Assembly (NCBI GenBank): GCA_037137535.1
Contig: JBAXKC010000043.1
Span: 1 to 21,544 of the forward strand
Length of the DNA stretch: 21,544 nt
Direction: 5' to 3'
From: a bacterium
GTDB lineage: Bacteria > Cyanobacteriota > Vampirovibrionia > Gastranaerophilales > JBAXKC01
Position 1 is the stretch's first letter, and each line of letters opens with the position of its first letter. The notes under the pieces were generated by a model. The model saw only the letters and a list, made by a program, of their open reading frames with translations. It was not told the origin of the DNA and made no database searches. A program made the translations under genes and the position numbers. Positions 2,779 through 21,544 of this stretch are shown piece after piece.

Positions 2779-2818
2779 GATTTTTTACAAGCCCACCCTT
2801 ATTAAATTCTAAAAATTT

Positions 2819-2855
2819 AACTAATGCTTAGGTTTTAATAGCCTAAGCATTAGTT
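2819..2855 (-). terminator. Strong stem-loop between the substrate-binding protein gene and the MCP gene (partial terminator or mRNA-stabilising hairpin)
   Basis: Perfect 14-bp inverted repeat AACTAATGCTTAGG (2819-2832) / CCTAAGCATTAGTT (2842-2855) with a 9-nt loop, 10 nt after the upstream stop. The minus-strand tail AAATTTTT is an imperfect U-tract. Confidence 0.65.
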
Positions 2856-2865
2856 TATATGAAAT

Positions 2866-3858
2866 TTACTTGCTGTCTGCTTCAATAACTTTTGTTACTT
2901 TATTGAAAAATTCTTCTGGTACTGTAATTCCAAGAGCTTCAGCTGCTTTTAAATTAACAATAATATTTGGAACATCTTGAAGTTGAACAGGCATTGTTTG
3001 AGGTGATTGACCTCCTAATACTTGTTTTGTCATTCCCCATGTTTGAGTTCCAAGCTTAAAGTAATCAGAACATAAACTTGTTAATGCTCCAACTGTTGTT
3101 GGTGGCTCATTTGCTGAAAATACAGGGATTTTAGCAGCAGTTGCAACTTTAATGATTTTTTCTGCATCTACACTTCCAACCATTGTATCAGCAGGGAGAA
3201 AAATAGCATCAACTTTGCCAACAAGGGCTTCAGTTGCTGCGGCCAACTCATCAACGCTTTTAGCAGGACTTGTGAGGATTTCTGTAAATCCAAGCTTTTC
3301 TTTTGCTACATTAACTTCATTAACTTGAACTAAAGCATTACTTTCGGCATCTTTATAGATAATTCCAAGTCTTTTTACGTTTGGAACAACTTCTTTAAAG
3401 GATAAAATTTGTTTTTCTACAGATTGTTTATTGCTTGTTCCTGTAAAATTATTTTTTGTTTCTGTCAAACTTGCTACAATTCCTGATTTCACAGGATCAG
3501 TTACAACTGAAAACAGTACAGGAGTGGTAACACCATGTTCAAGTAAATACTTTGAGCCTGTTGTTCCAACGCTACAAATAGCATCATAGTTTCCTGCTTT
3601 TACTTGTTCTACCATTGTCGCTGCACTTGCGGGATCTTTTTTAACATCATAAGTATCTATAACAATGTCTTTTCCTGCGACAAGTCCATCTTTTTCAATT
3701 CCGTCTAAAAATCCTTTATAAGCTTGATTTAGAAGACTTGAGTTTAAATCCCAGCTCCATATAGCTATTTTATTGATTTTTTTTGTAGCCGCCATAGAGG
3801 GCAGAGCCATAAAACATAGTAAAAAGAACATCAAAAAGACTGCAAATAATTTTTTCAT
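2866..3858 (-). CDS. ABC-transporter-type substrate-binding protein (ABC_sub_bind/TrpX-like family), 330 aa, Sec signal peptide
   Basis: Family motifs PVLFSVVTDPVKSGIV, NFTGTSN, VPNVKRLGIIY..ESNA, VDAIFLPADT, DYFKLG and IVNLKAAEALGITVP. The start is moved from the ORF-track 3885 to ATG 3858 because AGGAG (3867-3871) lies 8 nt upstream and MKKLFAVFLMFFLLCFMALPSMA is a typical signal peptide. Confidence 0.88.
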   Translation of the reverse strand: MKKLFAVFLMFFLLCFMALPSMAATKKINKIAIWSWDLNSSLLNQAYKGFLDGIEKDGLVAGKDIVIDTYDVKKDPASAATMVEQVKAGNYDAICSVGTTGSKYLLEHGVTTPVLFSVVTDPVKSGIVASLTETKNNFTGTSNKQSVEKQILSFKEVVPNVKRLGIIYKDAESNALVQVNEVNVAKEKLGFTEILTSPAKSVDELAAATEALVGKVDAIFLPADTMVGSVDAEKIIKVATAAKIPVFSANEPPTTVGALTSLCSDYFKLGTQTWGMTKQVLGGQSPQTMPVQLQDVPNIIVNLKAAEALGITVPEEFFNKVTKVIEADSK

Positions 3859-3994
3859 GGAATTTACTCCTAACTTTAAACTCACTCATAATAAATTAAT
3901 AATTTATATTATTAATTCCTAAATTATAATATCATTTTTTTTAAAATTTGTGTAATATAATTTCAATTTTAATATATTTAACGAATAAAAACAG

Positions 3995-6769: not shown

Positions 6770-6775
6770 TGTTTT

Positions 6776-9700: not shown

Positions 9701-10282
9701 TGCGAATAAGGCTGAAATAATATAAATAAAACCGTTTAGGAATAAGCCGTTAGCTAAGCCTATTTTGTTGATATAAATTCCTGAGATTATCGCTCCTAAA
9801 AGGATTGCGATAGTTGCTGTTCCAGAATTTAAAGCATTGGCTAATTGTAAATGTTCTGATTTTACAATGTTTGGCAGGGTACTTTGTTTTGCAGGATAAT
9901 AAAAAGCAGAACCGATTCCCATTAAAAATGAAAACCCGTATATTGAAAAATTGGTATCTGCGATTATAATGGTATTTTTGAATAAAAAGGCAGGAATAAT
10001 AAAGACTAGAAGGGCCCTATAGGCATTACTGCACACCATAATCCATTTGCGGGAAAATCTGTCGGCAATACCCCCCGCTAAAGGACTTAGTAAGAGAGAA
10101 GGCAACATGAAGAAAAACAGAATTTTTGCCATTTCAGAACCGGCTTTTTGTGAAAAGCTTATCACCCAACTCATTAAAGCAATTTGAATAATGGAATCTC
10201 CTAAATAAGAGCAAATTTGCCCCAGCCATAATTTAAGAAATTCTTTGTTTTTAAATAAATTCGTAAATTTAATCTGCTTCAC
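6776..10282 (-). CDS. Three-domain fusion, 1168 aa: MFS transporter + PlsC-type lysophospholipid acyltransferase + AMP-forming long-chain acyl-CoA/ACP synthetase (LplT/Aas-like lipid salvage)
   Basis: GTG start with AGGAG at 10291-10295. MFS motif A is GGIADRFSRK. Acyltransferase motifs are NHTGWID (HX4D) and IFPEG. Adenylation motifs are YTSGTTGNPKG, GYGLTE, GWFHTGD, ITGRIK and LPKTATRKVKR. Confidence 0.92.
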   Translation of the reverse strand: MKQIKFTNLFKNKEFLKLWLGQICSYLGDSIIQIALMSWVISFSQKAGSEMAKILFFFMLPSLLLSPLAGGIADRFSRKWIMVCSNAYRALLVFIIPAFLFKNTIIIADTNFSIYGFSFLMGIGSAFYYPAKQSTLPNIVKSEHLQLANALNSGTATIAILLGAIISGIYINKIGLANGLFLNGFIYIISALFASLLKLGKHTTICVGKCIYNTVFKDFGFTLAYLKKHKKTLRLILLSVALSLITASFFNSMNALATDYFKIGISGVSKLKGMLGVGMILGTLITLYLSKYIRISYLLAGSFLAIFLTTATAQLVKTYSMAWGWLVLIGIANSIILITLDTILQKVTPDRLRGKIFGFRSTVTTGAFLATMWIVSEVLTIKSPINVFKSVSALSFSMALIVLLFDSPFRHFLVRTTFGSIFRVFFPIKIEGREHLKTSGKMILAGNHTGWIDTLILQVACKRPIWFITGEVAFNLPVIRLIINYFNVIAIKPRKGVEALDVAVKKLLKGEVLCIFPEGKLTTDGKLNKFNKGVAYMAKNSNTPIVPFVIHGGFEAWAYNKLFPTFKKITIQFGQPIYNLEDNVVDELKDRVQFMKDSIERKEKIKAAKTDYENVLDLMQFKGDIHGPVKALSLKDKDSWKELSYIELSRQAKNFANYLIANGLERNDKIAILSESRPEWGIALFASIQTGAITVPLDIKLTNAELISILSDCLPKILCVSAHYIETAKELQKNIPSIENIFVIEEKPQSCEFRSVYELKAPQGDIGRDRTLDETALIIYTSGTTGNPKGVMITFGNIIAQLKDFESVFKINSNDSLVSILPLNHLLELNVGFLGMLYMGARVSYCKSLNPKEIGKVMKERQATYMIVVPLFVKMLKNSVEKEIRKSDKTAQNLFEFMYKIAKYMPIHIRRIMFKKVIAGFGGKLKGFVCGGAPLETEVGEFFERIGIPIYQGYGLTETSPSITTNTPEDNRIGSVGKPLPSVIIRLSEEGEILTKGPNLMKGYYNNPQMTAEVIDEEGWFHTGDIGEFDKDGFLYITGRIKNMIVLGGGKKIFPEEVEATLSKNELIKELCVMSVKIKGGAKDGTEEVCAVIVPSDDLVKQYQHNPKELEKIITSEVNKQAKAELASYKCPTVITVNLEELPKTATRKVKRKEVEKWYYQRLNNVGA

Positions 10283-10332
10283 TTTTTGTTCTCCTAATAA
10301 ATTATGTTATCGTTTTTTCTATTCTTATTTTC

Positions 10333-11058
10333 TTAGAACTGTTCAAGCCAATTATTACAGACATTTATAAATGTATCATGAGATTGAAGATATAAATCTT
10401 CGGCATGACAATTATTCTTAAAAATATTTAGTGACTTTGATTGACAAGCTTTATTATATAGTTTTTCTGCATGCCATGGATATACAGTAGGGTCTATTTC
10501 ACCTGCAAGAAATAAAATTGGAATAGGAGCTATATCTTGAACTATATTAATTGGCTTAATCTTTTTTAAAAATGGATTGTCAACTCTTATGCTAAGAGCG
10601 TTTTTAAATTCGAATTTCTGGAACGTAGGGATAAATGCTTCAGGTTTATACCAATGATTTTCAATTTTATCAAAGTCGCAAGGGGTGCTTACAGTTATAA
10701 GCATTTGAATATCCTTATGTTTTGCAGTATGAATAATTGCAGTAGCTCCACCCATCGAAAATCCAATGATTCCAACCTTTGAGTACTTGTTTTTTGCATA
10801 ATCAACAACCGTTTTTAAATCCATAGCTTCTTTTGCGGAAAAAGTAAATCGCCCCGAACTTTTTCCATGTCCTCTAAAATCCATAGTGATGACATCATAA
10901 TGGACAGCGAAATCTTTTGCCATTGACTTAAATGGCTTAGAATCTTTTGTCATAGCCCAGCCTGGGCAAATTATAATTACAATATCTTTTCCTTCTTTAT
11001 AATGATTAATTGCAATTTTGATATTGTCTTCAGTTTTTAAAAATAGCTCTTCCATCAT
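10333..11058 (-). CDS. Alpha/beta-fold hydrolase (possible esterase/lysophospholipase), 241 aa
   Basis: DFRGHGKS, nucleophile elbow GFSMGG, candidate catalytic Asp in GEIDPTV and His in NNCHAE. AAGGA lies upstream. Confidence 0.88.
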   Translation of the reverse strand: MMEELFLKTEDNIKIAINHYKEGKDIVIIICPGWAMTKDSKPFKSMAKDFAVHYDVITMDFRGHGKSSGRFTFSAKEAMDLKTVVDYAKNKYSKVGIIGFSMGGATAIIHTAKHKDIQMLITVSTPCDFDKIENHWYKPEAFIPTFQKFEFKNALSIRVDNPFLKKIKPINIVQDIAPIPILFLAGEIDPTVYPWHAEKLYNKACQSKSLNIFKNNCHAEDLYLQSHDTFINVCNNWLEQF

Positions 11059-11113
11059 TATTTCTTGTCCTTATATTGAGAATTGAGAAAATTAATTGAA
11101 TATGTTTCTTGTT

Positions 11114-11866
11114 TTAATCTTTATTCAAGTATTGATATAAATGAATTTGAGCTTCTTTTGTTATTGCATTTCCATTTTTATCAATAGTGTAAGTTTGATT
11201 GTTGTTTTCAGTTGTAATAGAAAATTCCATATTTCTCTCTGTTTTTCCTGTGTCAAATAGATTTAAAGCGAATGTTTTATTTGGCGCTATTTTAAGCGGG
11301 AATTTAGAGAGTTTAAACTTGTTTGCTTCGTTTATTGCTATTAAGTCTCTTGCAGGAAGAGAAACAGCTAAATATGGAACTGAAATAAGACTAAGGCTTG
11401 ACTCTTTCATTAAATTTAAGGATTTATGAGAGGTATTTGGTATTGAATCAAGATAAAGTTTATCTTTGCTGATTAAATAAGAGGTTCCATAAAAAACTGT
11501 ACCAGGTATAGTAACAGTAAATCCTATTGCGCCAATCGCCAATCCAATCGGTGCTACTATAAGTTCGCCTGTTTTTGAGAAAATATCCAAGGCTCTGTTT
11601 TGCTGTTTTTGAACTATAAATTGATGAGGATTTTGAACACTTGATATTTGAGTAAGGTATATATTTTCTGAGGAAGTATTTTTGATTTTGTAAGTATAAG
11701 CATGGTTTTTCTCTTTTAGGTAGCTTTTTAAATTGTACTTTTCTTTTATAATTTCAAATGGTTTTGCTTGATAAGCGTTTTGAGTGATTAACTCTTCAGC
11801 ATAAGTGCAAGTCGCATTTGTTACTGTTGCTAAAAGTAATAAGGCAGTAGCAATTTTCTTTTTCAT
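11114..11866 (-). CDS. Hypothetical exported protein, 250 aa
   Basis: Strong RBS AAAAGGAG just upstream and signal peptide MKKKIATALLLLATVTNATCTYA. There is one internal Gly-rich hydrophobic segment (LIVAPIGLAIGAIGFTVTIPGTVF). No family was recognised. Confidence 0.75.
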   Translation of the reverse strand: MKKKIATALLLLATVTNATCTYAEELITQNAYQAKPFEIIKEKYNLKSYLKEKNHAYTYKIKNTSSENIYLTQISSVQNPHQFIVQKQQNRALDIFSKTGELIVAPIGLAIGAIGFTVTIPGTVFYGTSYLISKDKLYLDSIPNTSHKSLNLMKESSLSLISVPYLAVSLPARDLIAINEANKFKLSKFPLKIAPNKTFALNLFDTGKTERNMEFSITTENNNQTYTIDKNGNAITKEAQIHLYQYLNKD

Positions 11867-12067
11867 AATAATCTCCTTTTAAATAATAATTATCTTGTGT
11901 TACATATAAATTTCAAAAATTCAAACAAGTTCCTAAAAATTCGCATAAAAAAATCAGGATCGTTCTTTATTACACTTATAGACTCAGAGGTGAAATAAAA
12001 AATTTCCATAATAAAAGCTCCTTTCAATAATCAAAGGATTTTTAAAATTAGAATTTAGAGACCTTTT

Positions 12068-12541
12068 TTAGTTTTTATTTAATTTTTCAAACCATTTGCC
12101 AAGTATTTCAGAAATTTGTTTTAATTCTTGATTTTCTAGCAAGCCTGTTAATTCTTTTATTTTTTGAAGGTAAGAAGGCCATGCTTCGTCTAATAGTTCA
12201 GAGCCTTTTTGCGTTATTTTTATTATATTTACTCTTCTGTCGCCTTTTTGGGCTTCACGAATAATAAGATTTTCTTTTGTTAACCTGTCGAGCAGTTTTG
12301 TCATGTTAGAGGCAGTTACAATAAGCTTTTTACCTATTTCTACCTGACTTAAGCCGTCATCTCCGCCCTGATGTTTAATTATCATAAGTGCATTAAATTT
12401 GGCTGTGCTAAGATTATAAGGTTTCAAGATTTCTTCCACTTCTTTTTCAATCAATGAAAAAACAGCAGCCATTCCATATACAGTATTTTCTGCATAATTA
12501 TCATTTTCAAAATCAATGCCAAAAGGTTTAACTTTTTCCAT
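12068..12541 (-). CDS. MarR-family transcriptional regulator, 157 aa
   Basis: LKPYNLSTAKFNALMII, LSQVEIG, TASNMTKLLDRL and wing motif GDRRVNIIKITQKG. AGGAG at 12550-12554. Confidence 0.93.
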   Translation of the reverse strand: MEKVKPFGIDFENDNYAENTVYGMAAVFSLIEKEVEEILKPYNLSTAKFNALMIIKHQGGDDGLSQVEIGKKLIVTASNMTKLLDRLTKENLIIREAQKGDRRVNIIKITQKGSELLDEAWPSYLQKIKELTGLLENQELKQISEILGKWFEKLNKN

Positions 12542-12565
12542 AAATAATGCTCCTTTATTAACTAT

Positions 12566-12594
12566 AGTTTATATGCGAATAGTTTCCATGTCAA
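12566..12594 (-). promoter_or_regulatory. Sigma70-type promoter of the marR gene
   Basis: On the minus strand, perfect TTGACA (12594-12589), a 17-nt spacer and TAAACT (12571-12566), just upstream of the marR RBS. Confidence 0.7.
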
Positions 12595-12612
12595 GTATTA
12601 AAGTGGAAACTA
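12580..12612. promoter_or_regulatory. Candidate MarR operator (inverted repeat)
   Basis: TAGTTTCCA (12580-12588) and its exact reverse complement TGGAAACTA (12604-12612) flank the -35 box. The related palindrome AACTATAGTT (12560-12569) overlaps the -10. Confidence 0.55.
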
Positions 12613-12668
12613 ATATATTCTTAATAAGTGAGTTATAATTGAAAATAATAAAAAAACGGATAAATTAT

Positions 12669-14153
12669 ATGGCTATTAAAGGTTTTGCCTCTTCAATCAG
12701 TACAAAAAACTTTTCGGAACAATATAAAGAATTTAATTTTAATCTTTTGGGAAAAACTGACTTATCAGTTACGTCAGTAGGTTTTGGGAGTTATAGAATT
12801 GATATTAGGTCTGATATAAACAAAAAATCACTTAAACAGGCACTTTTATCCGGAATTAACCTCATTGATACAAGCTCTACATATACAAACGGAAATTCTG
12901 AACTTCTTATAGGCAAAGTATTAAAAGAATTAACAGATTCTAATGATTTATTAAGAGAAAATCTTGTAATAGTTACTAAAGGCGGATATTTGCAAGGTCA
13001 TAACTATGATTTAAGCCAAAAACTAAAAAAAGAAAATAATGCTTTTCCTGATTTAGTTGAATATCAAAAAGGTTTAGAGCATTGTCTCCATCCTGAATTT
13101 TTAGAAGATCAGATAAATAGAAGTCTGGAAAGATTGGGGATTGAAACTATTGATGTTTATTTACTCCATAATCCCGAATATTATCTTAAATGGGCGGAAA
13201 AAAAGAACATAGATTTAATTCTTGCCAGAAAAGAGTATTATTCAAGAATTAAAAAGGCTTTTGAATATTTGGAAAAAGAAGTTCAAAAGGGAAGAATTAA
13301 GAATTACGGGATTAGTTCTAATACTTTTCCTGCTGATTCTAATGATTATAGTTTTACTTCTTTAGATACTGTTATTAAAATTGCTGAGGAAATCGCTGAA
13401 AATAATCATTTCAGCATTATAGAATTTCCGATGAATTTAGCGGAAACGGCTGCTTCTAGGCAAATAAATCAATCAAATAATATGACATTGCTTCAAGTAG
13501 CCGAAGCTAAAAATTTAGGTGTTTTAATTAATCGACCGTTAAATGCTTTTCATAACAATAAACTTATTAATTTAGCCGAGCCTGTCATTATTAATGAAGC
13601 TCCCAGCGTAGAATTTATCAATAATACGCTAGAAAATATAGATAAACTGGAACAATTAATCTCTCAAAAAGTATATGAAAATAATGCATTTTTGTTAGAA
13701 ATAGAAAAATATCTGTTTGTTTTTAATGAATTACAATTTAGTTGGCTAGATATAAATAATATTTCAAATTGGCAATCAGCCTTAAATCAATATTTTTTGC
13801 CAAGATTTTATTATTCTAAAAATATGATTAAAAAGAGTGCTTTAAAAAATAAAGAATCGGAAAATAGATTAATAGCTGAAATAGATAAATTATTTGAGCT
13901 TATCTCTTCTTATTTTAATAATGAACATTTGCAATTAATAATAAGGATAAAAGAAAACATAGTTAAGCAGCTACCCGAATTATCCTCAAGAAAAAATTTA
14001 AGTAGTATGGCAATCTGTTCATTAAGATCAACTGACGGAATAACGGCAGTATTGGTTGGAATGACTCAACTTTCTTATGTTGAAGATGTTATTAAAGAGT
14101 TACAATTATCGCCTATTAAGGATATTGATTGGATAAAAGTTGAAATTGATTAA
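12669..14153 (+). CDS. Aldo/keto reductase family protein, 494 aa, long form with an inserted helical segment
   Basis: LGKTDLSVTSVGFG, with the catalytic tetrad in IDTSSTY (D,Y), IVTKGG (K) and YLLHNPE (H). Also SLERLGIETID and AVLVGM. ATG 12669 (ACGGA upstream) is preferred over the ORF-track TTG 12639, which overlaps a TATAAT at 12634-12639. Confidence 0.9.
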   Translation: MAIKGFASSISTKNFSEQYKEFNFNLLGKTDLSVTSVGFGSYRIDIRSDINKKSLKQALLSGINLIDTSSTYTNGNSELLIGKVLKELTDSNDLLRENLVIVTKGGYLQGHNYDLSQKLKKENNAFPDLVEYQKGLEHCLHPEFLEDQINRSLERLGIETIDVYLLHNPEYYLKWAEKKNIDLILARKEYYSRIKKAFEYLEKEVQKGRIKNYGISSNTFPADSNDYSFTSLDTVIKIAEEIAENNHFSIIEFPMNLAETAASRQINQSNNMTLLQVAEAKNLGVLINRPLNAFHNNKLINLAEPVIINEAPSVEFINNTLENIDKLEQLISQKVYENNAFLLEIEKYLFVFNELQFSWLDINNISNWQSALNQYFLPRFYYSKNMIKKSALKNKESENRLIAEIDKLFELISSYFNNEHLQLIIRIKENIVKQLPELSSRKNLSSMAICSLRSTDGITAVLVGMTQLSYVEDVIKELQLSPIKDIDWIKVEID

Positions 14154-14468
14154 TTTATCCACAAACAGGAACAAATGTATTATTAATCTTTATTAGTATT
14201 TATAAAAACTAGAATGAGAATTTAATATTAAATTATATGTAAATAATGAAAAATATATTTGTAATTATTAACAGCTCTTAATAAATTGCAAATAGGCTTT
14301 TTAGTGAAAATTTAAGCTATATAAACGTTTTCATGCGTATTGCCTGATTTTAATTGCCTATACTATTTAGTGGTTGCTGTTACGGTTGTAGTTATGGTAG
14401 ACTGCCACAGATGGATGAATAGTCCAAAGTATTATCGGTAAAGCAATAAACTATTTAGGAGATTAAAG

Positions 14469-17400
14469 ATGCCAGTTAATTTGTATGAAAACGAGAATCC
14501 TTCAGTTTATAAATATACTTATGAATATGGAAGATTTAATGAACTTTTAAGTGAGAAAGAATACAGCTTAGATGGATCTACTTTAATCTCAGAATCTAAA
14601 TACACATATAATTATAATGCAGATAATACTTTGGTTTTAGTTGAAGCACACAAAGATATTTATAATGATGATATTAAAACAGCAGTAATCAAATATGAAT
14701 ATAATGAAAGTGGAGATGCAGTTACTAAGGAATCTTATTTTAATTGTGATCCTAAATTAGGGTTATTACCTACTTATATTAAGCATTTGGACGAAAATGG
14801 AAATGTAATTTCTTCAGAATATCTTAGTAATCGCTTTGACGAAAACGGAAATATAATTTCTTCTACAATGTACGATAATTTAGAGCTTTTAGCTAATTCT
14901 GAATTAATGGGAAATGTTAAAGATATAGCAACTGCCGGTTTAGCGGCAGCAGTTTCAGCTGAAGATTTAACTCATACAGCTTTAGAAAATGCTACAACTG
15001 CTAAAAATAATGCTATTGCTACTGCTGCCGCTACACAAACAGCTTTAGAAAATGCTACAACTGCTAAAAGTGAAGCTATTGCTGAAGCAGCTACGACGCA
15101 AACAGCTTTAGAAAATGCTACCTCTGCTCTTGCGACAGCAACTTCAAATGCAACAGCAACTGAAACGGCGAAAATTAATGCTACAACTGCAAGAACTAAT
15201 GCAATTGAAGCGGCAGCAATTACGCAAACCGCTTTGGATAATGCAACAACTGCGAAAACAAATGCTATTGCTGCCGCTTCAGTTACCCAAACCGCTTTAG
15301 ATAATGCTAGCTCTGCTCTTGCAACAGCAATTGCAAATGCAACAGCAACTGAAACTGCGAAAAATAATGCTACAACTGCAAGAACTAATGCAATTGCTGC
15401 TGCTGCAATTACACAAACAGCGTTAGATAATGCTACCTCTGCTCTTACATCTGCAACTTCAAATGCAACAACAACACAAACAGCATTGGATAGTGCCACA
15501 ACTGATAAAAACAATGCTATTGCTGCTGCTGCAGTTACACAAACAGCTTTAGAAAATGCTGCCACTGTTAAAAATAACGCTATAGCTGCCGCTGCAGTTA
15601 CGCAAATCACTTTAGAAAATGCTGCCTCTGCTCTTGCAACAGCAATTGCGAATGCAACAGCAACTGAAACTGCGAAAACTAATGCTAATACTGCAAGAGA
15701 TAATGCTATTGCTGATGCTGCAATTACGCAAACAGCTTTAGATAATGCTACATCTGCTCTTGCAACAGCAACGTCAAATGCAACAGCAACTGAAACTGCG
15801 AAAATTAATGCTACCACTGCGAAAATTAATGCTATTTCTGCTGCTGCAATTACGCAAACAGCTTTGGATAATGCAACAACCGATAAAACTAATGCTATTA
15901 CTGCCGCTGCAGTAACCCAAACAGCTTTAGATAATGCTACCTCTGCTCTTGCAACAGCAACTTCAAATGCGACAGCAACTGAAACTGCGAAAACTAATGC
16001 AACAACTGCAAGAACTAATGCTATCGCTGCTGCCGCAGTTACGCAAACCGCTTTAGATAATGCTGTCTCTGCTCTTGCAACAGCAACGTCAGATGCAACA
16101 GCAACTGAAACTGCGAAAATTAATGCTACTACTGCAAGAACTAACGCAATTGCTGCCGCCGCAGTTACTCAAACCGCTTTGGATAATGCTATAACTGCTA
16201 AAAACAATGCAATAGCTGATGCCGCAGTTACTCAAACAGCTTTAGATAATGCTACATCTGCTTTAGCTTCAGCTGTTACAAATGCCGGAACTACTCAAAC
16301 TGCATTAGATAATGCTACTACTGCTAAAAGCAACGCTATTACAGCTGCAGCTACTGCCGCTTTGGCTCTTACGAACGATGCTACTAATATATCGCTTATT
16401 GCTGCTAAACAAGCGGCAGATGCACTTGTAGTAACAAAAACAAATGAATTAGATGCCCTCAGAACACCGGAATACCTTGCGGCTCTTGCCTTAAAAGAAG
16501 AAGCTGTTGCAGCTGCAGTAATAACAAATAATGCATTAGTTGCAGCAACATCAGCTCATGATGCTGCTGTCGCGGCAGCCGCAGCTACTCAAACAGCCTT
16601 AAATAATGCAACAACTACATGGGGTAATGCCGTAACAGCAGCAGCACTTACAGAAACAGCTAAAATTAACGCTGCAACTGCATTAAGTGATGCCGTAACA
16701 GCAGCAGGAATAACAGAAACAGCTAAAACTAATGCCACAACTGCATTAAGTGATGCCGTAACAGCGGCAGGAATAACAGAAACAATTAAAACTAATGCCA
16801 CAACTGCTCGTGACACAGCTGTTACTGCTGCGGCATTAACTGAAACAGCGAAAACTAATGCTGTAAATGTCTGGAATGATGCTGTAGCAGCTGCAGTAGC
16901 CACTCAAACAGCAAAAGATAATGCTGTTACTGCCTTATCAACTGCAAACACAAATGCTGCAACTGCATTAACAGCAATGAATAATGCCACAACTTTATTA
17001 AATAATGCAATTGCTGCTGCCAATAACACTGAAGCTTCAAAAGTTGCAGCAACAAATGCAAAAGTAACTGCAGTTGCAAATGCTGCAACTGCATTAGCAG
17101 CAAAAAATGCTGCAACTACTGCAAAAGCTGATGCAGTTGCAGCAGCTGTAATCACTCAAAATGCTGTAAATACTGCAACTACTGCAAAATCAGATGCAGA
17201 AGCAGCCGCCGCATTAACTCAAGCAGATGTAGACGTTGCTTCGTTAGCCTGGAACAATGCTGTAACTGGTGCAGCAACGGCCGCAAGTAATCTTGCTGAT
17301 GATCCTTCAAATGTAACTCTTCAAACGGCAAAGGATAATGCTGATGCTTTAGTTGTCTCTACATTAGCGACTTTAACAAATGCAACAACCATTGATGATG

Positions 17401-20400
17401 CTTATGATGCTATAGTTGTAACAAAAACAGCTGAATTAGCCGCTGCCGTAGCGGCAGATAATACAGCTGATGCACTGGTTATAACAAGAAACTCTCAATT
17501 AGCAACTGCAAATACAGCATTAACAACAGCAAATGCCTTAGTAACAAGTAAAACTAATGCTTTGAATATGGCTATATCAATAGATAATGTAACTGATGCT
17601 TCAGTTATAACAAGAGCTAATGAATTAAATACCGCTACAACTGCATATAATACAGCAACTGCTTTAGTTACAACAAAAACAAATGAATTAACTACTGCCA
17701 CATCAGCAGATGATGCTGCAGATGCTCTAGTCGCTACTGACTTAACTGCCAAAAATGCTGCTATATCAGCAGATAATGCAGCTGATGCTTTAGTTACAAC
17801 AAGAAATAATGAATTAAGCGCAGCTACAACAGCAGATACAACAGCTGATGATTTAGTCGCAACAAGAACAAGTGAGTTAAATACTGCTACAACAGCAGAT
17901 ACAACAGCTGATAACTTAGTAACCACAAGAACTACAGAATTAGCGACAGCCACAACAAATGATCAAAATGCTGACGCTTTAGTTGTTTCAACATTAGCTA
18001 CAAAAGTAAGTGCTACCAATGCCGATAATACAGCTGATGGTATAGAATCATCAACAAATGCAACATTAATAAGCGCTACTGCTGCAGATAATGCAGCTGA
18101 TACTCTGGTAACAACAAGAACCAACGCAGTAAACGCTACAATCTCACCGGAAGCTATAGCCGCAGGTGAAGCGCTAAATTCAGCAATCAATGCCGCTGCA
18201 ATAACTCAAACTGCAAAGAATACAGCAACAACAGCATTAGCAACGGCAATTTCAAATGCGACAGCTACTGAAGCTGCTAAAATTAATGCTACAACTGCTC
18301 GTGATGCAGCTGTTACAGCTGCGGCATTAACTGAAACAGCAAAAAATGATGCGGATACAGAATGGAATAATGCAGTTTCAGCAGCTGTAATAACTCAAAC
18401 GGCAAAAGACAATGCTACAACTGATTTAGCAACCGCAACTAATGCCGCAGCCGCTACTCAATCTATAAAAGATACGGCAGTAACTGCACTTGCAAATGCT
18501 GAATCTGCAGCTGCTATAACTCAAACAGCTAAAGATAATGCTACATCAGCACTTACATCAGCAACAAATAATGCTGCTATAACTCAAACAGCAAGAGATA
18601 ATGCCATAGCTGCTTATAATAGTGCTGTATCAGCAGCAGCTACAACCCAAACTGCCAAAGATAACGCTACAACTGCTTATAATAATGCTGTTTCATCAGC
18701 AGCTATTACTCAAACAGCTAAAGATGCAGCCAGTTCAGAGCTGGCAACCGCAGTATCAGCTGCTATTGTAACTCAAACCGCTAAAGATGCGGCAGTTGCT
18801 GCATTGGCAAGTGCAAATACTAGCGCAGCAGCAACTGAAACTGCTAAAATAGCTGCAAATACAGCATTAACAACAGCAAATACTAATGCCGCAGCAACGG
18901 AAACCGCAAAAAACAATGCAATAACGGCTTATAATAATGCTGTCACTGCTGCTGCAGTTACAGAAACAAATAAAACAAATGCAAGTTCAGATTTAGATGC
19001 TGCAGTTGCGGCAGCGGCTACTACTCAAGCAACTAAGGACGCAGCCAGTACTGCTCTTAGTTCTGCAGTTACAGCAGCAGCTGCTACTCAAGCTACAAAA
19101 AATACTGCAACTTCTGAATTAACCGCCGCTACAAATGCGGCTCTTGAAACTCAAGATGCTAAAGATGCTGCAACATCAGCATGGAATGATGCAGTCTCCT
19201 TTGCCGCATTTACACAAACCTCAGTAGATGATGCAACAATAGCATTAAATAGTGCAAATACTGCAGCGTCAGATGCAGCAGCTGCATTAGTAGGTCATGA
19301 ATCTGATGCGGGGCTTATTGCCGCAAAAGCAGCAGCTGATGATCTTGTTATTTCTGCAACAGCTGATCTTACAAATGCTACAACAATAGATACTTTTATG
19401 GATTCATTGGTTTCTACAACAGCATCAGATTTAACAGCGGCAACAAATGCTGATGATGCGGCGGATGCTTTAGTTTTAACAAAAACTACTGCATTAACTA
19501 ATGCCACAAATGCTGATGATACTGCGCAGGCTTTAGTTGCAACAAGAACAACCGCTTTAACTAATGCTACAAATGCAGATAATACTGCAGATGCTTTGGT
19601 GGTAACAAGAACAACCGCTTTAACCAATGCTACAAATGCAGATAATACTGCTAATGCCTTGGTTACCTCAACATTAGCCGCTAAAAATGCTGCAATAACC
19701 GCAGATAATACTGCTGATGCTTTAGTTGTTACAAGAACAAATGAATTAACTGCGGCAACAACAGCAGATACAACAGCTGATAACTTAGTCACAACAAGAA
19801 CTACTGAATTAGCTACTGCAACAACAGCAGATAATACAGCCGATGCTTTAGTGGTAACTAAAACCACTGCTTTAAATAATGCAACTAATTCTAACAACGT
19901 ATTAGAGGGTTTAGTTTCAGCAAGAGCTGCTGACTTAGCAACTGCGACAACTAATGATAATAATGCGGATGCGTTAGTTGCCTCTAGGTTAGCCACAAAA
20001 AATACGGCAATATCAACAGACGATATTGCAGATGCATTAGTTACAACAAGAACCTCTGAATTGACAACTGCGACAAATAATGATAATACAGCAGATGCTT
20101 TGGTTACAACAAGAACTAATGAATTGGCAACGGCCACAACTAACGATAATATTGCAGATGCGTTAGTTACAACAAGAACAAATGAATTAGCTACTGCCAC
20201 AACTGCGGATAATACAGCAGATGCTCTAGTTGCAACTAAATTAGGACTATTAAATGCTGCTATTAGTGCTGATGATACAGCAGATGCCTTGGTTGTAACT
20301 CGAAATAATCAACTGACTACAGCTACAAATACTGATAATACAGCAGATGCGTTGGTTGTAACTCGAAATAATCAACTGACAGATGCTACAAGTGCCGATG

Positions 20401-21544
20401 ATGTAGCAGATGCCTTGGTTGTAACAAGAACAAACGAATTTACTGCATTGACAACAGGAGGAGGACTTGCAAGCGCTGAAACCGCAATAGCAACTGCCGA
20501 AACGGCATTAGTAAATGCCCAAACAGCTGCAACTACAGCTGCAGACGCACTTGCAAATAATGCTGATGTAAATGCATTGATTGCCGCAAAAGCTACAGCA
20601 GATACATTAGTTGTAACAACAACAACAGCATTTAATAATGCTCAAACAGCAGATACAACAGCTGATAATTTAGTCACAACAAGAACAAATGAATTAGCTA
20701 CTGCAACAACAGCAGATAATACAGCTGATGCTTTAGTTTCATCAACAACTGCTACATTTGATGCAGCAGTAACAGCCGATACAACAGCAGATAACTTAGT
20801 CACCACAAGAACAAATGAATTAGCTACTGCAACAGCAGACGATACAACCGCAGATAACTTAGTCACCACAAGAACAAGTGAATTAGCTACTGCAACAACA
20901 GCAGATAATATAGCAGATGCTTTAGTTACAACAAGAACAAATGAATTAGCTACTGCGACAACCGCAGATAATATAGCAGATGCTTTAGTCACAACAAGAA
21001 CAAATGAATTAGCAACTGCGACAACAGCCGATAATACAGCTGATGCTTTAGTTTCATCAACAACGGCTACCTTTGATGCAGCAGTAACAGCAGATACAGC
21101 AGCAGATGACTTAGTCGCAACAAGAACAAGTGAATTAAATGCTGCGACAACAGCAGATACAACAGCAGATAATTTAGTCACAACAAGAACAAATGAATTA
21201 GCTACTGCGACAACAGCGGATACAACAGCAGATAATTTAGTCACAACAAGAACAAATGAATTAGCTGCGGCAACAACAGCCGATACAACAGCTGATAATT
21301 TAGTTACAACAAAAACTAATGAATTAGCCGCAGCTACAACCGCAGATACAGCCGCAGATAATTTAGTTTCATCAACAACTGCTACATTTGATGCTGCATT
21401 AACCGCAGATACAAGCGCAGATGATCTAGTTTCATCAACAACTGCTACATTTGATGCTGCATTAACCGCAGATACAACCGCAGATGATCTAGTAACAACA
21501 AGAACGACTGAACTAGCTACGGCTACAACTAATGATCAAAATGC
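14469..21544 (+). CDS. Giant Ala/Thr-rich 21-aa-repeat coiled-coil protein, at least 2358 aa, 3' end outside the window (absent from the ORF track)
   Basis: AGGAG at 14457-14461 and ATG at 14469. Manual translation stays open in one frame from MPVNLYENENPSVYKYTYEY to ...ATATTNDQNA at the window end. It was probably omitted from the track because it has no stop codon. No signal peptide. Confidence 0.95.
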   Translation, partial: MPVNLYENENPSVYKYTYEYGRFNELLSEKEYSLDGSTLISESKYTYNYNADNTLVLVEAHKDIYNDDIKTAVIKYEYNESGDAVTKESYFNCDPKLGLLPTYIKHLDENGNVISSEYLSNRFDENGNIISSTMYDNLELLANSELMGNVKDIATAGLAAAVSAEDLTHTALENATTAKNNAIATAAATQTALENATTAKSEAIAEAATTQTALENATSALATATSNATATETAKINATTARTNAIEAAAITQTALDNATTAKTNAIAAASVTQTALDNASSALATAIANATATETAKNNATTARTNAIAAAAITQTALDNATSALTSATSNATTTQTALDSATTDKNNAIAAAAVTQTALENAATVKNNAIAAAAVTQITLENAASALATAIANATATETAKTNANTARDNAIADAAITQTALDNATSALATATSNATATETAKINATTAKINAISAAAITQTALDNATTDKTNAITAAAVTQTALDNATSALATATSNATATETAKTNATTARTNAIAAAAVTQTALDNAVSALATATSDATATETAKINATTARTNAIAAAAVTQTALDNAITAKNNAIADAAVTQTALDNATSALASAVTNAGTTQTALDNATTAKSNAITAAATAALALTNDATNISLIAAKQAADALVVTKTNELDALRTPEYLAALALKEEAVAAAVITNNALVAATSAHDAAVAAAAATQTALNNATTTWGNAVTAAALTETAKINAATALSDAVTAAGITETAKTNATTALSDAVTAAGITETIKTNATTARDTAVTAAALTETAKTNAVNVWNDAVAAAVATQTAKDNAVTALSTANTNAATALTAMNNATTLLNNAIAAANNTEASKVAATNAKVTAVANAATALAAKNAATTAKADAVAAAVITQNAVNTATTAKSDAEAAAALTQADVDVASLAWNNAVTGAATAASNLADDPSNVTLQTAKDNADALVVSTLATLTNATTIDDAYDAIVVTKTAELAAAVAADNTADALVITRNSQLATANTALTTANALVTSKTNALNMAISIDNVTDASVITRANELNTATTAYNTATALVTTKTNELTTATSADDAADALVATDLTAKNAAISADNAADALVTTRNNELSAATTADTTADDLVATRTSELNTATTADTTADNLVTTRTTELATATTNDQNADALVVSTLATKVSATNADNTADGIESSTNATLISATAADNAADTLVTTRTNAVNATISPEAIAAGEALNSAINAAAITQTAKNTATTALATAISNATATEAAKINATTARDAAVTAAALTETAKNDADTEWNNAVSAAVITQTAKDNATTDLATATNAAAATQSIKDTAVTALANAESAAAITQTAKDNATSALTSATNNAAITQTARDNAIAAYNSAVSAAATTQTAKDNATTAYNNAVSSAAITQTAKDAASSELATAVSAAIVTQTAKDAAVAALASANTSAAATETAKIAANTALTTANTNAAATETAKNNAITAYNNAVTAAAVTETNKTNASSDLDAAVAAAATTQATKDAASTALSSAVTAAAATQATKNTATSELTAATNAALETQDAKDAATSAWNDAVSFAAFTQTSVDDATIALNSANTAASDAAAALVGHESDAGLIAAKAAADDLVISATADLTNATTIDTFMDSLVSTTASDLTAATNADDAADALVLTKTTALTNATNADDTAQALVATRTTALTNATNADNTADALVVTRTTALTNATNADNTANALVTSTLAAKNAAITADNTADALVVTRTNELTAATTADTTADNLVTTRTTELATATTADNTADALVVTKTTALNNATNSNNVLEGLVSARAADLATATTNDNNADALVASRLATKNTAISTDDIADALVTTRTSELTTATNNDNTADALVTTRTNELATATTNDNIADALVTTRTNELATATTADNTADALVATKLGLLNAAISADDTADALVVTRNNQLTTATNTDNTADALVVTRNNQLTDATSADDVADALVVTRTNEFTALTTGGGLASAETAIATAETALVNAQTAATTAADALANNADVNALIAAKATADTLVVTTTTAFNNAQTADTTADNLVTTRTNELATATTADNTADALVSSTTATFDAAVTADTTADNLVTTRTNELATATADDTTADNLVTTRTSELATATTADNIADALVTTRTNELATATTADNIADALVTTRTNELATATTADNTADALVSSTTATFDAAVTADTAADDLVATRTSELNAATTADTTADNLVTTRTNELATATTADTTADNLVTTRTNELAAATTADTTADNLVTTKTNELAAATTADTAADNLVSSTTATFDAALTADTSADDLVSSTTATFDAALTADTTADDLVTTRTTELATATTNDQN
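14970..16355 (+). repeat. Block A1: 22 x 63-bp type-A repeats (T[QE]TA[LK]xNATTA[KRL]xxAIAAAAx)
   Basis: Exact 63-bp period. Three subtypes: a = TQTAL..K, b = TQTAL..SALATA, c = TETAK..R. Order is a a b c a b c b a a b c b c a b c b c a b a. Confidence 0.92.
16467..18146 (+). repeat. Internal module 1: about 13 type-A repeats (16467-17279), turn (17280-17339), about 13 type-B repeats ADxLVxTRTNELxxATTADxx (17340-18146)
   Basis: Manual translation and unit counting. Bounded by TPE (Pro 16467) and SPE (Pro 18147). Confidence 0.9.
18147..20456 (+). repeat. Internal module 2: about 18 type-A repeats (18147-19274), turn (19275-19334), about 18 type-B repeats (19335-20456)
   Basis: Manual translation and unit counting. 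Ends at a GGG linker (20457-20465). Confidence 0.9.
20598..21544 (+). repeat. Block B4: at least 15 x 63-bp type-B repeats, continuing beyond the window
   Basis: ADNLVTTRTNELATATTADTT-type units, with Phe variants (mostly VSSTTATFDAA) at units 1, 3, 8, 13 and 14. Confidence 0.92.

What the first reader, a model, noticed from the sequence alone, without database searches (positions are those of the whole stretch)
14970..21544. Nested mirror architecture: a giant protein that appears to fold like an RNA multi-branch loop (long stem carrying two coiled-coil arms)
Seen: block order is A x22 - turn - short B - PE - [A x13 - turn - B x13] - PE - [A x18 - turn - B x18] - GGG - short A - turn - B x15 or more. 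The outermost blocks have no adjacent full-length partner, yet they mirror each other across more than 4 kb. Counting back from the end of A1, subtype-a units (TQTAL...K) fall at 1, 3, 8, 13 and 14. Counting forward in B4, the Phe-variant units fall at 1, 3, 8, 13 and 14. Lys codons 16326, 16200, 15885, 15570 and 15507 pair with Phe codons 20631, 20757, 21072, 21387 and 21450, and every pair sums to 36957. One c-type unit also has Lys there and has no Phe partner. Established: 21 residues is three heptads, and an alpha-helix rises about 0.15 nm per residue. Inference: A1 and B4 form an antiparallel stem of about 70 nm, ending in a small helical node from which two hairpin arms (about 40 and 55 nm) branch, giving a Y-shaped single-chain fibre. 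I know of no described family with this layout, but I could not search.
Basis: partly seen in the sequence, partly recalled or inferred. Interest (0 to 1): 0.93.

Follow-up and report, generated by a model that had tools for sequence, protein, structure and literature searches.

The report
Orphan giant protein of nested helical hairpins
A giant bacterial protein with no known relatives is built of 21-residue repeats whose odd units mirror each other across up to 4 kb of gene, which suggests that one chain folds into a long helical stem carrying two helical hairpin arms.

Summary
One ORF (14469 to the window end, 2358+ aa) holds an N-terminal domain of 167 aa, then only 21-residue repeats of two kinds, A and B, in the stated block order.

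I found the same mirror logic in both inner arms. All 8 Trp/Tyr at A position 12 face a B unit with Leu/Ala at position 10, against 1 of 23 other units. An unsupervised covariation scan over all 46 unit pairs exceeds 1500 of 1500 permutations. The two strands of each arm match in length to one residue.

AlphaFold2 folds one arm tip as two long helices, and its nearest solved folds are helical hairpins.

Searches of Pfam, NCBIfam, PHROGs, PDB, 1.84 billion representative proteins and the Atlas found no relative.

The most likely reading is a single-chain nested antiparallel coiled-coil fibre with register-setting key pairs. The branched shape, the node geometry and the function are not shown. 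The downstream prediction could not be tested because the 3' end could not be retrieved.

The parts
14457..14461 (+). Shine-Dalgarno-like AGGAG, 7 nt before the ATG
   Evidence: read directly
14469..21544 (+). giant ORF, 2358 codons visible, 3' end outside the window
14469..14969 (+). N-terminal non-repeat domain (residues 1-167). It is Tyr-rich (16 Tyr), has no evident signal peptide by eye, and looks like YD/MORN-type beta-hairpin repeats
   Evidence: Pfam below threshold only: DUF3836 E 0.0089, MORN_2 E 0.13. Atlas leads to RHS_repeat/DUF3836 clusters score 0.83-0.89, under the 0.9 mark. No match starts before residue 134 among 1.84 billion representatives
14970..16355 (+). A1: 22 A units (residues 168-629), of subtypes a (Lys at position 12), b (Leu) and c (Arg). 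Proposed first strand of the stem
   Evidence: 5-unit (315 nt) internal periodicity
16356..16418 (+). turn motif 1 (residues 630-650, contains LIAAK). No Pro or Gly
   Evidence: drawn as continuous helix at low confidence
16419..16472 (+). short B segment (651-666), then the Pro-Glu junction (667-668)
   Evidence: helix break at 664-666
16473..17279 (+). A2 (residues 669-937, 269 aa), outgoing strand of arm 1. Trp at position 12 in W718, W802, W928
17280..17336 (+). turn 2 (938-956, contains P946)
   Evidence: helix break at 944-950; the covariation centre is 947
17337..18152 (+). B2 (957-1226, 270 aa), returning strand of arm 1, then Pro-Glu (1227-1228). Position-10 Leu at L966, L1092, L1176
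18153..19274 (+). A3 (1229-1602, 374 aa), outgoing strand of arm 2. Aromatic residues at position 12: W1299, Y1383, Y1404, Y1488, W1572
19275..19331 (+). turn 3 (1603-1621, contains G1609, H1610, G1615)
   Evidence: AlphaFold2 loop at 1608-1612; covariation centre 1612
19332..20465 (+). B3 (1622-1996, 375 aa), returning strand of arm 2, then Gly-Gly-Gly (1997-1999). Position 10 is Leu or Ala at A1652, L1736, A1820, L1841, L1925
20466..20594 (+). short A segment (2000-2023) and turn motif 4 (2024-2042, contains LIAAK, no Pro or Gly)
20595..21542 (+). B4 (from residue 2043): 15 full units visible, with Phe at position 13 in units 1, 3, 8, 13, 14. Proposed second strand of the stem; it continues beyond the window

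Best explanation
The gene encodes a giant, acidic fibrous protein rich in Ala (29%) and Thr (23%) that is almost entirely alpha-helical.

Architecture. After an N-terminal beta-type domain of 167 aa, the chain is four tandem helical hairpin modules. They share one homologous turn motif and are separated by three short linkers: Pro-Glu, Pro-Glu and Gly-Gly-Gly.
- The two middle modules are complete hairpins. If they are helical at 0.1485 nm per residue, they form arms of about 40 and 56 nm.
- The first and last modules are lopsided. The long unpaired A1 strand (22 units) and B4 strand pair antiparallel with each other over about 1,400 intervening residues, giving a stem of about 65-70 nm.
- This stem closes the chain into a three-way junction. 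It places the N-terminal domain and the unseen C-terminal part side by side at the stem base.

Register and partner choice. These are set by irregularly spaced 'key' pairs at a core position.
- In the stem, Lys at A position 12 sits opposite Phe at B position 13.
- In the arms, Trp or Tyr at A position 12 sits opposite a B unit remodelled to Leu/Ala at position 10, often with Lys at position 13.
- Because the two codes differ, A1 should not mis-pair with B2 or B3.

Growth. Both stem strands appear to have grown by matched 5-unit (315 nt) duplications.

What is shown and what is inferred.
- Shown: the block order, the mirror covariation, the equal strand lengths, the helical prediction and the orphan status.
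- Inferred: antiparallel pairing as the cause of the mirror, pairing within one chain, the branched shape, and the register-code role.
- Function is inferred only weakly. I take it to be a rigid structural fibre or spacer. It has no Sec signal, so it is either exported by a route that reads the missing C-terminus or it is an intracellular scaffold.
For: Stem mirror:
- 5 of 5 a-type units face 5 of 5 Phe units among 15 paired units, and all codon sums are 36957 (p = 3.3e-4).
- This is the best of 324 block, orientation and shift comparisons.

Independent arm mirror:
- 8 of 8 aromatic A-position-12 residues face Leu/Ala at B position 10, against 1 of 23 other units (Fisher p = 1.1e-6).
- Residue sums are constant: 1894 for arm 1 and 3224 for arm 2.

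Unsupervised scan of all 441 position pairs:
- Pooled over 46 unit pairs, the top pair is A12-B10 with z = 7.03, reached by 0 of 1500 permutations.
- Stem alone gives p = 0.02 and arm 2 alone p = 0.039.

Geometry:
- Strand lengths between linkers and turns are 269/270 and 374/375 aa.
- The covariation centres are 947 and 1612. They coincide with P946 and with the AlphaFold2 breaks at 944-950 and 1608-1612.
- The arm-2 tip (292 aa) has a best model with pLDDT 83.8 and pTM 0.56: two helices of 151 and 134 residues.
- Its nearest solved folds are helical hairpins of chemoreceptors and Smc, for example 5nnv_D with TM 0.54/0.61.

Other points:
- No long inverted DNA repeats exist, so the mirror is at protein level.
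- A1 and B4 both peak in DNA self-identity at a 5-unit offset (0.79 and 0.81). Duplicate segments diverge alike, 0.83-0.85 against 0.82.
- A whole-chain two-fold pairing (a single sum of 2675) does not fit the arms. A2/B3 and A3/B2 reach at best p = 0.036 with n = 8.
Against: - The variant classes were defined after looking at the sequence.
- Whole-unit Mantel tests are weak for the stem (r 0.16, p 0.06) and for arm 2 (r 0.18, p 0.13).
- The raw max-MI test is not significant for the arms (p 0.22). Arm 1 alone gives p 0.2.
- The arm-2 pattern is nearly palindromic, so a parallel pairing at shift -2 also scores p = 0.003.
- Only 1 of 5 AlphaFold2 models of the arm tip is confident; the others have pLDDT 45-57.
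- The 673-aa construct is poor (pLDDT 56.6, pTM 0.23). It does not break the helix at turn 1, and it adds breaks inside A2 and B2.
- No tool gave coordinates, so the predicted register was not compared with the covariation register.
- 3.5 residues is not the dominant hydrophobic period.
- A two-helix coiled coil with an Ala/Thr-rich core may not be stable alone.
- There is only one sequence and there are no homologues, so there is no independent evolutionary covariation.
- The 3' end, with stem units 16-22, is missing.
Confidence: 0.5

Rival explanations
1. The helices and the A/B antiparallel code are the same, but the long-range A1-B4 pairing is between chains. A1 of one molecule pairs with B4 of another, giving a domain-swapped antiparallel dimer or an open-ended polymer or network. 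The two arms remain local hairpins.
For: Covariation cannot tell pairing within a chain from pairing between chains. A1 is made about 1,400 residues before its partner, which favours capture by another chain. Many long coiled coils are oligomers (general knowledge).
Against: Short A and short B (about one unit each) and the three linkers sit exactly where a closed three-way junction needs them. A single global two-fold pairing is not supported for the arms. Nothing here excludes a swapped dimer.
Confidence: 0.2
2. The same nested pairing holds, but the molecule is not branched. The Pro-Glu and Gly-Gly-Gly linkers act as tight reversals, so both arms lie back along the stem. The result is a tapering rod of 6, then 4, then 2 helices, or a four-helix cap at the node formed by two mini-hairpins at turns 1 and 4.
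For: All four turn motifs are homologous and have the same spacing: the innermost A unit start plus 40 gives the B unit start (609/649, 917/957, 1582/1622, 2003/2043). This suggests that turns 1 and 4 are real turns. The hydrophobic face is broad. A second Thr/Ala/Val face appears on a helical wheel, which is my inference. Two-helix Ala/Thr cores are weak by themselves.
Against: A1 unit 22 is a-type and needs the Phe unit of B4, not the default short B. Turns 1 and 4 lack Pro and Gly, and turn 1 was drawn helical, at low confidence. No mirror or parallel code links the arms to the stem.
Confidence: 0.15
3. The mirror patterns are by-products of repeat history or chance, and the protein is an ordinary unpaired, parallel-oligomeric or disordered low-complexity repeat protein.
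For: The classes were chosen post hoc. The whole-unit tests are weak. The 5-unit periodicity in both A1 and B4 makes some coincidences easier: shifts of +5 and -5 leave only 3 and 2 mismatches. The complex-prediction job gave no verdict, which counts neither way.
Against: Three independent block pairs all peak at the predicted antiparallel shift 0. The unsupervised scan is reached by 0 of 1500 permutations. Tandem duplication makes direct patterns, not mirror patterns. No inverted DNA repeats were found. Arm strands are equal to within one residue.
Confidence: 0.1
4. The ORF is not a real gene, or is an assembly artefact of a repeat.
For: The window ends inside the repeats. No identical or similar protein exists in the protein collections.
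Against: There are 7 kb of open frame in AT-rich DNA with a good AGGAG 7 nt before the ATG. Composition and periodicity are strongly protein-like. The last 100 nt are at most 77% identical to any other part of the gene. The long minus-strand ORFs inside it are most simply shadows of the biased codon usage (inference).
Confidence: 0.03

Closest known systems
SMC / MukB coiled-coil arms (PMC2141774, title and abstract seen in the listing; Smc fragment 5nnv_D)
   Same: A very long intramolecular antiparallel coiled coil, about 50 nm (figure recalled), that folds the chain back so that the N- and C-terminal parts meet. 5nnv_D has the highest TM-scores among the matches listed for the arm-tip model (TM 0.54/0.61).
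   Different: SMC has ATPase head halves and a globular hinge, non-repetitive arms and no side branches. No SMC or any other Pfam family matches this protein, and the Foldseek E-value is 0.033, which is not significant.
Chemoreceptor (MCP) cytoplasmic signalling hairpin (PDB 2ch7, 9a69, 3zx6; PMC6628036, passages read)
   Same: A helical hairpin built of paired heptads with both strands equal. Families differ by paired numbers of heptads. This is the closest precedent for two strands that must lengthen together. These are the top Foldseek hits.
   Different: MCP hairpins have 12-32 paired heptads (126-336 A). They work as homodimeric four-helix bundles with a conserved tip. Here the arms equal about 39 and 54 paired heptads and the stem about 66. 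There is no MCPsignal match, the repeats are of 21 residues, and the arrangement is nested. The MCP gene at 151-2778 in this window is a separate, ordinary one.
Designed coiled-coil protein origami (PMC7878764 and PMC10416210, abstracts seen in the listing)
   Same: [quoted passage not shown] This is the logic proposed here, with a Lys/Phe code for the stem and a Trp-Tyr/Leu code for the arms.
   Different: Origami proteins are man-made, and the abstract calls them distinct from natural compact proteins. They use short modules that close into polyhedra. Here the segments are 270-460 residues long, natural, and form a tree rather than a cage. This is 'works like', not membership.
Hyperactive type I antifreeze protein of winter flounder (PDB 4ke2_A)
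   Same: An Ala- and Thr-rich helical hairpin. It shows 26% identity over 218 aligned columns, the highest identity among the hits.
   Different: E = 0.036 and TM 0.27/0.38. Its 11-residue periodicity and water-filled four-helix dimer are recalled from memory, not tested. Here Ala is 29% and the repeat is 21 residues. B blocks do show a 10.5-residue hydrophobic period. Ice binding is only a speculation.
Other repeat proteins hit by sequence (P0002 and P0003)
   Same: They have Ala/Thr/Asn/Asp-rich heptad or 21-residue repeats, with 36-37% identity over 135-420 residues.
   Different: They have different architectures, with only one repeat type, no A/B alternation and no turn motifs. P0002 is a 2708-aa protein with other large domains. 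P0003 has an Ala/Lys-rich 21-mer. The best E-value is 1.1e-11 among 1.84 billion proteins. I read these as compositional convergence.

Membership tests
Intramolecular antiparallel coiled-coil hairpin (generic fold class) | Two long helices adjacent in sequence, joined by a short loop | tested here: met
   AlphaFold2 on residues 1456-1747 gives helices 1457-1607 and 1613-1746, pLDDT 83.8, in 1 of 5 models. The Foldseek neighbours are helical hairpins.
Intramolecular antiparallel coiled-coil hairpin (generic fold class) | Strands of equal length with complementary core residues in mirror register | tested here: met
   Strands of 269/270 and 374/375 aa. 8 of 8 aromatic residues face Leu/Ala, against 1 of 23 other units. 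In the unsupervised scan, 0 of 1500 permutations reach the observed value.
Canonical heptad coiled coil | Dominant hydrophobic periodicity of 3.5 residues | tested here: inconclusive
   A 3.5 peak is listed in A1, A3, B3 and B4, ranked 4th or 5th, and is not among the five listed for A2 or B2. The strongest periods are 5.24 in A1, 4.2 in A2 and A3, and 10.4-10.5 in the B blocks. The a/d assignment on a helical wheel is my inference.
SMC / MukB / Rad50 | ABC ATPase head halves at both termini, plus a hinge or zinc hook at the tip | tested here: not met
   No Pfam or NCBIfam family matches the 2358 visible residues. The C-terminus is unseen.
Methyl-accepting chemotaxis protein signalling domain | Match to the MCPsignal profile with the conserved hairpin tip | tested here: not met
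   No Pfam hit for P0001 at E <= 0.01. There is only fold-level resemblance, E 3e-3 to 2e-2.
RHS / YD-repeat proteins (N-terminal domain only) | Match to the RHS_repeat profile; many YD repeats forming a shell | tested here: not met
   RHS_repeat is not listed even at E <= 10. Only DUF3836 (E 0.0089, 16.4 bits against a cut-off of 25) and MORN_2 (E 0.13) appear. Atlas leads score 0.83-0.89, under the 0.9 mark.
Type I secretion (RTX-type) giant adhesins | C-terminal secretion signal and Ca-binding nonapeptide repeats; beta-rich Ig-like repeats | not testable with these tools
   The C-terminus lies outside the window. No RTX or Ig-like family matches the visible part, and the repeats are predicted helical.
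Type I antifreeze proteins | 11-residue Thr-X10 repeats in an Ala-dominated helix | tested here: not met
   The repeat is 21 residues and Ala is 29%. The 4ke2_A match has E 0.036. The family definition is recalled from memory.

The most novel reading that the evidence does not exclude
This is a natural counterpart of designed coiled-coil origami. A single chain of about 2,500 residues is built only of A and B helices and folds like an RNA multi-branch loop. It has a stem of about 70 nm, closed by pairing across about 1,400 residues, and two hairpin arms of about 40 and 56 nm that meet at a three-way junction. Two orthogonal side-chain codes specify both partner and register: Lys/Phe in the stem, and Trp-Tyr/Leu in the arms. 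The protein has lengthened by matched duplications on both strands of a helix pair. It would define a new protein family and a new architectural principle for natural fibrous proteins.
Probability: 0.4. Interest if true: 0.88.

Novelty: new variant of a known kind. Interest (0 to 1): 0.72.

Why it matters
Long antiparallel coiled coils are known as single hairpins, such as SMC arms, chemoreceptors and the dynein stalk. A chain of nothing but such helices, closed by a long-range stem into a branched tree, has to my knowledge only been built by design. My literature searches were narrow and turned up only the designed origami proteins.

If the reading is true, three things follow.
- It shows that nature uses sparse, irregular key pairs as a 'bar code' to keep near-identical repeats in register and to keep three helix pairs orthogonal.
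- It gives protein designers ready-made rules for long, rigid, branched nanostructures.
- It poses a clear evolutionary puzzle: how two strands 4 kb apart in a gene duplicate in step.

The protein also marks an orphan family with no detectable relative among 1.84 billion representative sequences.

Tried and rejected
- Complex prediction on A1 residues 462-629 with B4 residues 2043-2210 scored 0.01 against a mark of 0.34. The controls were not run and the verdict was 'no answer'. It counts neither for nor against binding.
- AlphaFold2 on residues 588-1260 without an alignment gave too poor a model to judge the node or arm 1 (pLDDT 56.6, pTM 0.23).
- Whole-unit Mantel correlation and raw max-MI are insensitive here. 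They are reported as weak or negative.
- Retrieving the 3' end or relatives failed throughout:
  - The search for related loci with the giant protein and with the upstream reductase found nothing (64 and 158 pattern matches, none confirmed).
  - The search for homologous proteins at near, shorter and longer lengths found nothing.
  - Plasmid blastn and phage tblastn found nothing.
  - The Atlas gave no usable hit for residues 1-2044.
- Of the 11 weak hits, I read 4 and judged them compositional. The other 7 were not inspected.
- A DNA-level inverted duplication as the source of the mirror is rejected. Only short arms of 18-36 nt at 70-94% complementarity were found.
- A single whole-chain two-fold (antiparallel homodimer with sum 2675) is rejected for the arms.
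- A beta-solenoid reading is rejected on the helical predictions.
- The promoter and terminator scan upstream of the gene gave nothing above shuffles. Rfam gave nothing in the window.
- The taxon of the window was not determined.
Full report
WHAT IS THERE

The window is AT-rich DNA, with GC 0.27-0.36 up to 15 kb. It carries ordinary chromosomal-type genes on 151-14153:
- a dCache/HAMP chemoreceptor;
- an ABC substrate-binding protein;
- a DUF2339 membrane protein;
- a fused MFS-acyltransferase-acyl-ACP synthetase;
- an alpha/beta hydrolase;
- a 250-aa ORF without a family;
- a MarR regulator;
- an aldo-keto reductase.

From 14469 a single ORF runs to the window end, with 2358 codons visible. 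An AGGAG sits 7 nt before the ATG.

Residues 1-167 are a Tyr-rich non-repeat domain (16 Tyr) with no evident signal peptide by eye. Its matches are all sub-threshold or weak: DUF3836 and MORN-variant in Pfam, and RHS_repeat/DUF3836 clusters in the Atlas at 0.83-0.89.

Everything after residue 167 is 21-residue (63-nt) repeats. The composition is Ala 29.3%, Thr 22.6%, Asn 9.5%, Asp 7.3% and Leu 7.3%. There are 223 acidic residues against 93 basic ones, and only three Pro and fourteen Gly.

CHECK OF THE OBSERVATION

- A1, 22 units (168-629);
- turn motif 1 (630-650);
- short B (651-666);
- Pro-Glu (667-668);
- A2 (669-937), turn 2 (938-956, with P946), B2 (957-1226);
- Pro-Glu (1227-1228);
- A3 (1229-1602), turn 3 (1603-1621, with G1609 and G1615), B3 (1622-1996);
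- Gly-Gly-Gly (1997-1999);
- short A (2000-2023);
- turn motif 4 (2024-2042);
- B4 from 2043, with 15 full units before the window ends.

The five Lys codons and the five Phe codons are at the stated coordinates, and each pair sums to 36957, which is a residue sum of 2675. Counted from the node, a-type units fall at 1, 3, 8, 13, 14, 18, 21 and 22 of A1. Phe units fall at 1, 3, 8, 13 and 14 of the 15 visible B4 units. The lone c-type unit with Lys (K452) faces a default B unit.

IS IT MORE THAN CHANCE?

For the stem, the contingency table is [[5,0],[0,10]], p = 3.3e-4. With the cruder class 'any Lys at position 12' it is [[5,1],[0,9]], p = 0.002.

I scanned all 324 combinations of A block, B block, orientation and unit shift with at least 8 pairs:
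- A1/B4 antiparallel at shift 0 was best.
- A3/B3 antiparallel at shift 0 was second (p = 7e-4).
- A2/B2 antiparallel at shift 0 was fifth (p = 0.014).

These three are exactly the nested pairs. For the two arms, shift 0 was fixed beforehand by aligning the turn motifs.

Shift 0 leaves 0, 1 and 1 mismatched special units. Shifts of 1 to 3 units either way leave 4 to 10. The 5-unit periodicity of the stem gives secondary minima of 2 and 3 at shifts of -5 and +5.

THE ARMS CARRY THEIR OWN MIRROR CODE

All eight Trp/Tyr at position 12 of an A unit face a B unit with Leu or Ala instead of Thr/Asn at position 10. These are W718, W802 and W928 in arm 1, and W1299, Y1383, Y1404, Y1488 and W1572 in arm 2.
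- The residue sums are constant: 1894 in arm 1 and 3224 in arm 2.
- Only 1 of the other 23 arm units has Leu/Ala there (Fisher p = 1.1e-6).
- In 4 of the 8 pairs, position 13 of the B unit is also Lys.

So an aromatic residue faces a remodelled partner, often with Lys, in the arms. A Lys faces a Phe in the stem. The same kind of pair is used in both orientations, but the two codes are distinct.

CONTROLS AGAINST POST-HOC CHOICE

I ran a scan with no chosen classes. It computes mutual information for all 21 x 21 position pairs, converts each to a z-score against permutations of unit order, and compares the maximum with the permutation maxima.

| Data set | Result |
|---|---|
| All 46 pairs pooled | top pair A12-B10, z = 7.03; 0 of 1500 permutations reach it |
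| Arms pooled | p = 0.0013 |
| Stem alone | p = 0.02 |
| Arm 2 alone | p = 0.039 |
| Arm 1 alone | p = 0.2 by maximum, 0.015 by the count of z > 3 |

The weaker tests must also be told:
- Whole-unit Mantel correlations are r 0.16 (p 0.06) for the stem, r 0.18 (p 0.13) for arm 2 and r 0.53 (p 1e-4) for arm 1.
- Raw maximum MI is not significant for the arms (p 0.22).
- Arm 2's pattern is nearly palindromic, so a parallel alignment at shift -2 also scores p = 0.003.

WHY THE MIRROR MEANS ANTIPARALLEL PAIRING

Tandem duplication produces direct order, not mirror order. The region has no long inverted DNA repeats, only arms of 18-36 nt at 70-94%. So the mirror exists only at protein level.

The strands of each arm are equal to within one residue, 269/270 and 374/375 aa. 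The covariation centres are residues 947 and 1612. They coincide with the helix-breaking residues and with the breaks that AlphaFold2 places at 944-950 and 1608-1612. A selection pressure that links residue i to residue S-i around a turn is what an antiparallel helix pair produces. This last step is inference.

STRUCTURE PREDICTION

Residues 1456-1747 (the tip of arm 2) were folded without an alignment.
- The best model has pLDDT 83.8 and pTM 0.56, with two helices of 151 and 134 residues and a five-residue loop.
- The other four models scored 45-57.
- Foldseek against the PDB gave no hit at E <= 0.001.
- The top matches include chemoreceptor cytoplasmic hairpins (9a69_B, 2ch7, 3zx6) and Smc arm fragments (5nnv_D, TM 0.54/0.61). 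They also include the RipA N-terminal domain, the winter-flounder hyperactive antifreeze (4ke2_A, 26% identity) and chains of axonemal doublet-microtubule structures.

Residues 588-1260 gave an all-helical but poor model (pLDDT 56.6, pTM 0.23). It broke at the first Pro-Glu, at turn 2 and at the second Pro-Glu. It did not break at turn 1, and it added breaks inside A2 and B2.

No coordinates are returned, so I could not compare predicted contacts with the covariation register.

The hydrophobic Fourier spectrum does not have 3.5 residues as its main period. A blocks peak at 4.2 and 5.25, and B blocks at 10.5 and 3.0. On a helical wheel the covarying positions (A12; B9, B10, B13) fall on the stripe formed by positions 1, 5, 8, 12, 15, 19 of A and 2, 6, 9, 13, 16, 20 of B. 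That is a heptad-like a/d pattern rich in Ala. This assignment is my inference and was not tested.

THE NODE IS UNRESOLVED

All four turn motifs are homologous and share the same spacing: the innermost A unit start plus 40 gives the B unit start. That argues that turns 1 and 4 reverse the chain. The result would be two one-unit mini-hairpins that, with the stem ends, form a four-helix cap.

Against this, turns 1 and 4 are the two without Pro or Gly. Also, the key-pair rule is satisfied only if A1 unit 22 (a-type) touches B4 unit 1 (Phe) and short B (default) touches short A (default). That fits a stem running straight through both motifs to a three-way junction at the three linkers. In that case the arms are blunt to within one residue, and the stem has an overhang of about six residues. 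Both versions keep the nested topology.

EVOLUTION OF THE REPEATS

A1 DNA is most similar to itself at a 5-unit offset (0.79, against 0.62-0.72 at offsets that are not multiples of five; 0.78 at ten units). B4 also peaks at 5 units (0.81, against 0.72-0.78).

The 5-unit segments that face each other have diverged to a similar degree: 0.83-0.85 nt identity in A1 and 0.82 in B4. The two strands of the stem therefore seem to have grown by matched 315-nt duplications. The only precedent I know is the paired heptad classes of chemoreceptors (PMC6628036, passages read).

RELATIVES

None were found.
- Pfam, NCBIfam and PHROGs: 0 families for the whole protein.
- PDB sequences: 0 at E <= 1.
- 1.84 billion representative proteins, queried with residues 1-1200: 11 at E <= 0.001, 1 at <= 1e-10, 0 at <= 1e-30. 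The 4 I read are other repeat proteins with different architectures. The other 7 were not inspected.
- The word-indexed 5.8-billion-cluster search: 0 at near, shorter and longer lengths.
- Atlas: no usable hit.
- Plasmid and phage collections: no match.
- Genome contigs: nothing for the protein or for its upstream neighbour.

MECHANISM AND FUNCTION

Best reading, confidence about 0.5: a single-chain nested antiparallel coiled-coil fibre.
- At 0.1485 nm per residue the strands correspond to about 69 nm (A1), 40 nm (arm 1) and 56 nm (arm 2).
- Sparse key pairs fix register and partner.
- The stem brings the N-terminal beta domain next to whatever follows B4.

What the fibre does is open. There is no Sec signal, the surface is acidic and rich in Thr, Asn and Ala, and no functionally linked neighbours are visible. 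I lean to a structural spacer or surface fibre exported through a signal in the missing C-terminus. An intracellular scaffold is the alternative. The resemblance of composition and fold to the helical-hairpin antifreeze protein is a lead only.

Rivals:
- inter-chain A1-B4 pairing (0.2);
- a compact rod or four-helix cap instead of free branches (0.15);
- chance or repeat history (0.1);
- an artefactual gene (0.03).

COMPARISON AND NOVELTY

The building block, a long intramolecular antiparallel coiled coil, is known from SMC/MukB (PMC2141774, abstract seen in the listing) and from chemoreceptors. The organising principle is one chain folded by long-range pairing of orthogonal coiled-coil segments. 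That is the principle of designed coiled-coil protein origami, which its authors describe as distinct from natural compact proteins (PMC7878764, abstract seen in the listing).

My three literature searches for a natural branched or nested single-chain coiled coil, or for an Ala/Thr-rich giant bacterial coiled coil, found none. They were narrow and cover open-access text only.

I rate this a new variant of a known kind. It is a new orphan family and a new topology built from a known element. Interest is 0.72.

Noticed in passing
window 14970-16355 and 20595-21542: Both stem strands have a 5-unit (315-nt) super-repeat. The facing duplicate segments are about equally diverged (0.83-0.85 against 0.82 nt identity). 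This suggests matched duplications in two gene segments 4 kb apart.
   Followed up: partly
window 16356-16418, 17280-17336, 19275-19331, 20538-20594: All four A-to-B transitions share one homologous turn motif. It ends in LIAAK in three of them and in a variant in turn 2. Only the two arm turns contain Pro or Gly.
   Followed up: partly
window 16557 (H697) with residues 1188-1208: The only His at A position 12 also faces a non-default B unit, with Ser-Ser-Thr-Asn at positions 7-10. It may be a third kind of key pair.
   Followed up: no
window 14972-15817, 16589-16903, 17495-17953, 19295-20200, 20642-21244 (minus strand): Long ORFs of 104-301 aa lie antisense to the giant gene. They are most simply shadows of its Ala/Thr codon bias.
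   Followed up: no
window 15001-21000 against the flanks: GC is 0.39-0.43 inside the repeats against 0.27-0.36 in the rest of the window. GCN and ACN codons explain this, so it is not evidence of transfer.
   Followed up: no
window 6776-10282 (minus strand): A 1168-aa three-part fusion of an MFS transporter, an acyltransferase and an AMP-binding enzyme. It best matches acyl-ACP-phospholipid O-acyltransferase models, though below their cut-offs.
   Followed up: no
window 12639-14153 (plus strand): An aldo-keto reductase homologue of 504 aa with a TTG start. The Pfam domain covers only residues 58-296, so it carries a long unexplained C-terminal extension.
   Followed up: no
window 11114-11866 (minus strand): A 250-aa ORF with no Pfam family. 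It has only weak lipoprotein-like matches (PHROG E 0.0028; YdgH E 0.027).
   Followed up: no
protein P0003: An unrelated 937-aa protein from the representative library carries about ten copies of a different Ala/Lys-rich 21-residue repeat. Its copies resemble the A unit, which looks like convergence on the same period.
   Followed up: no
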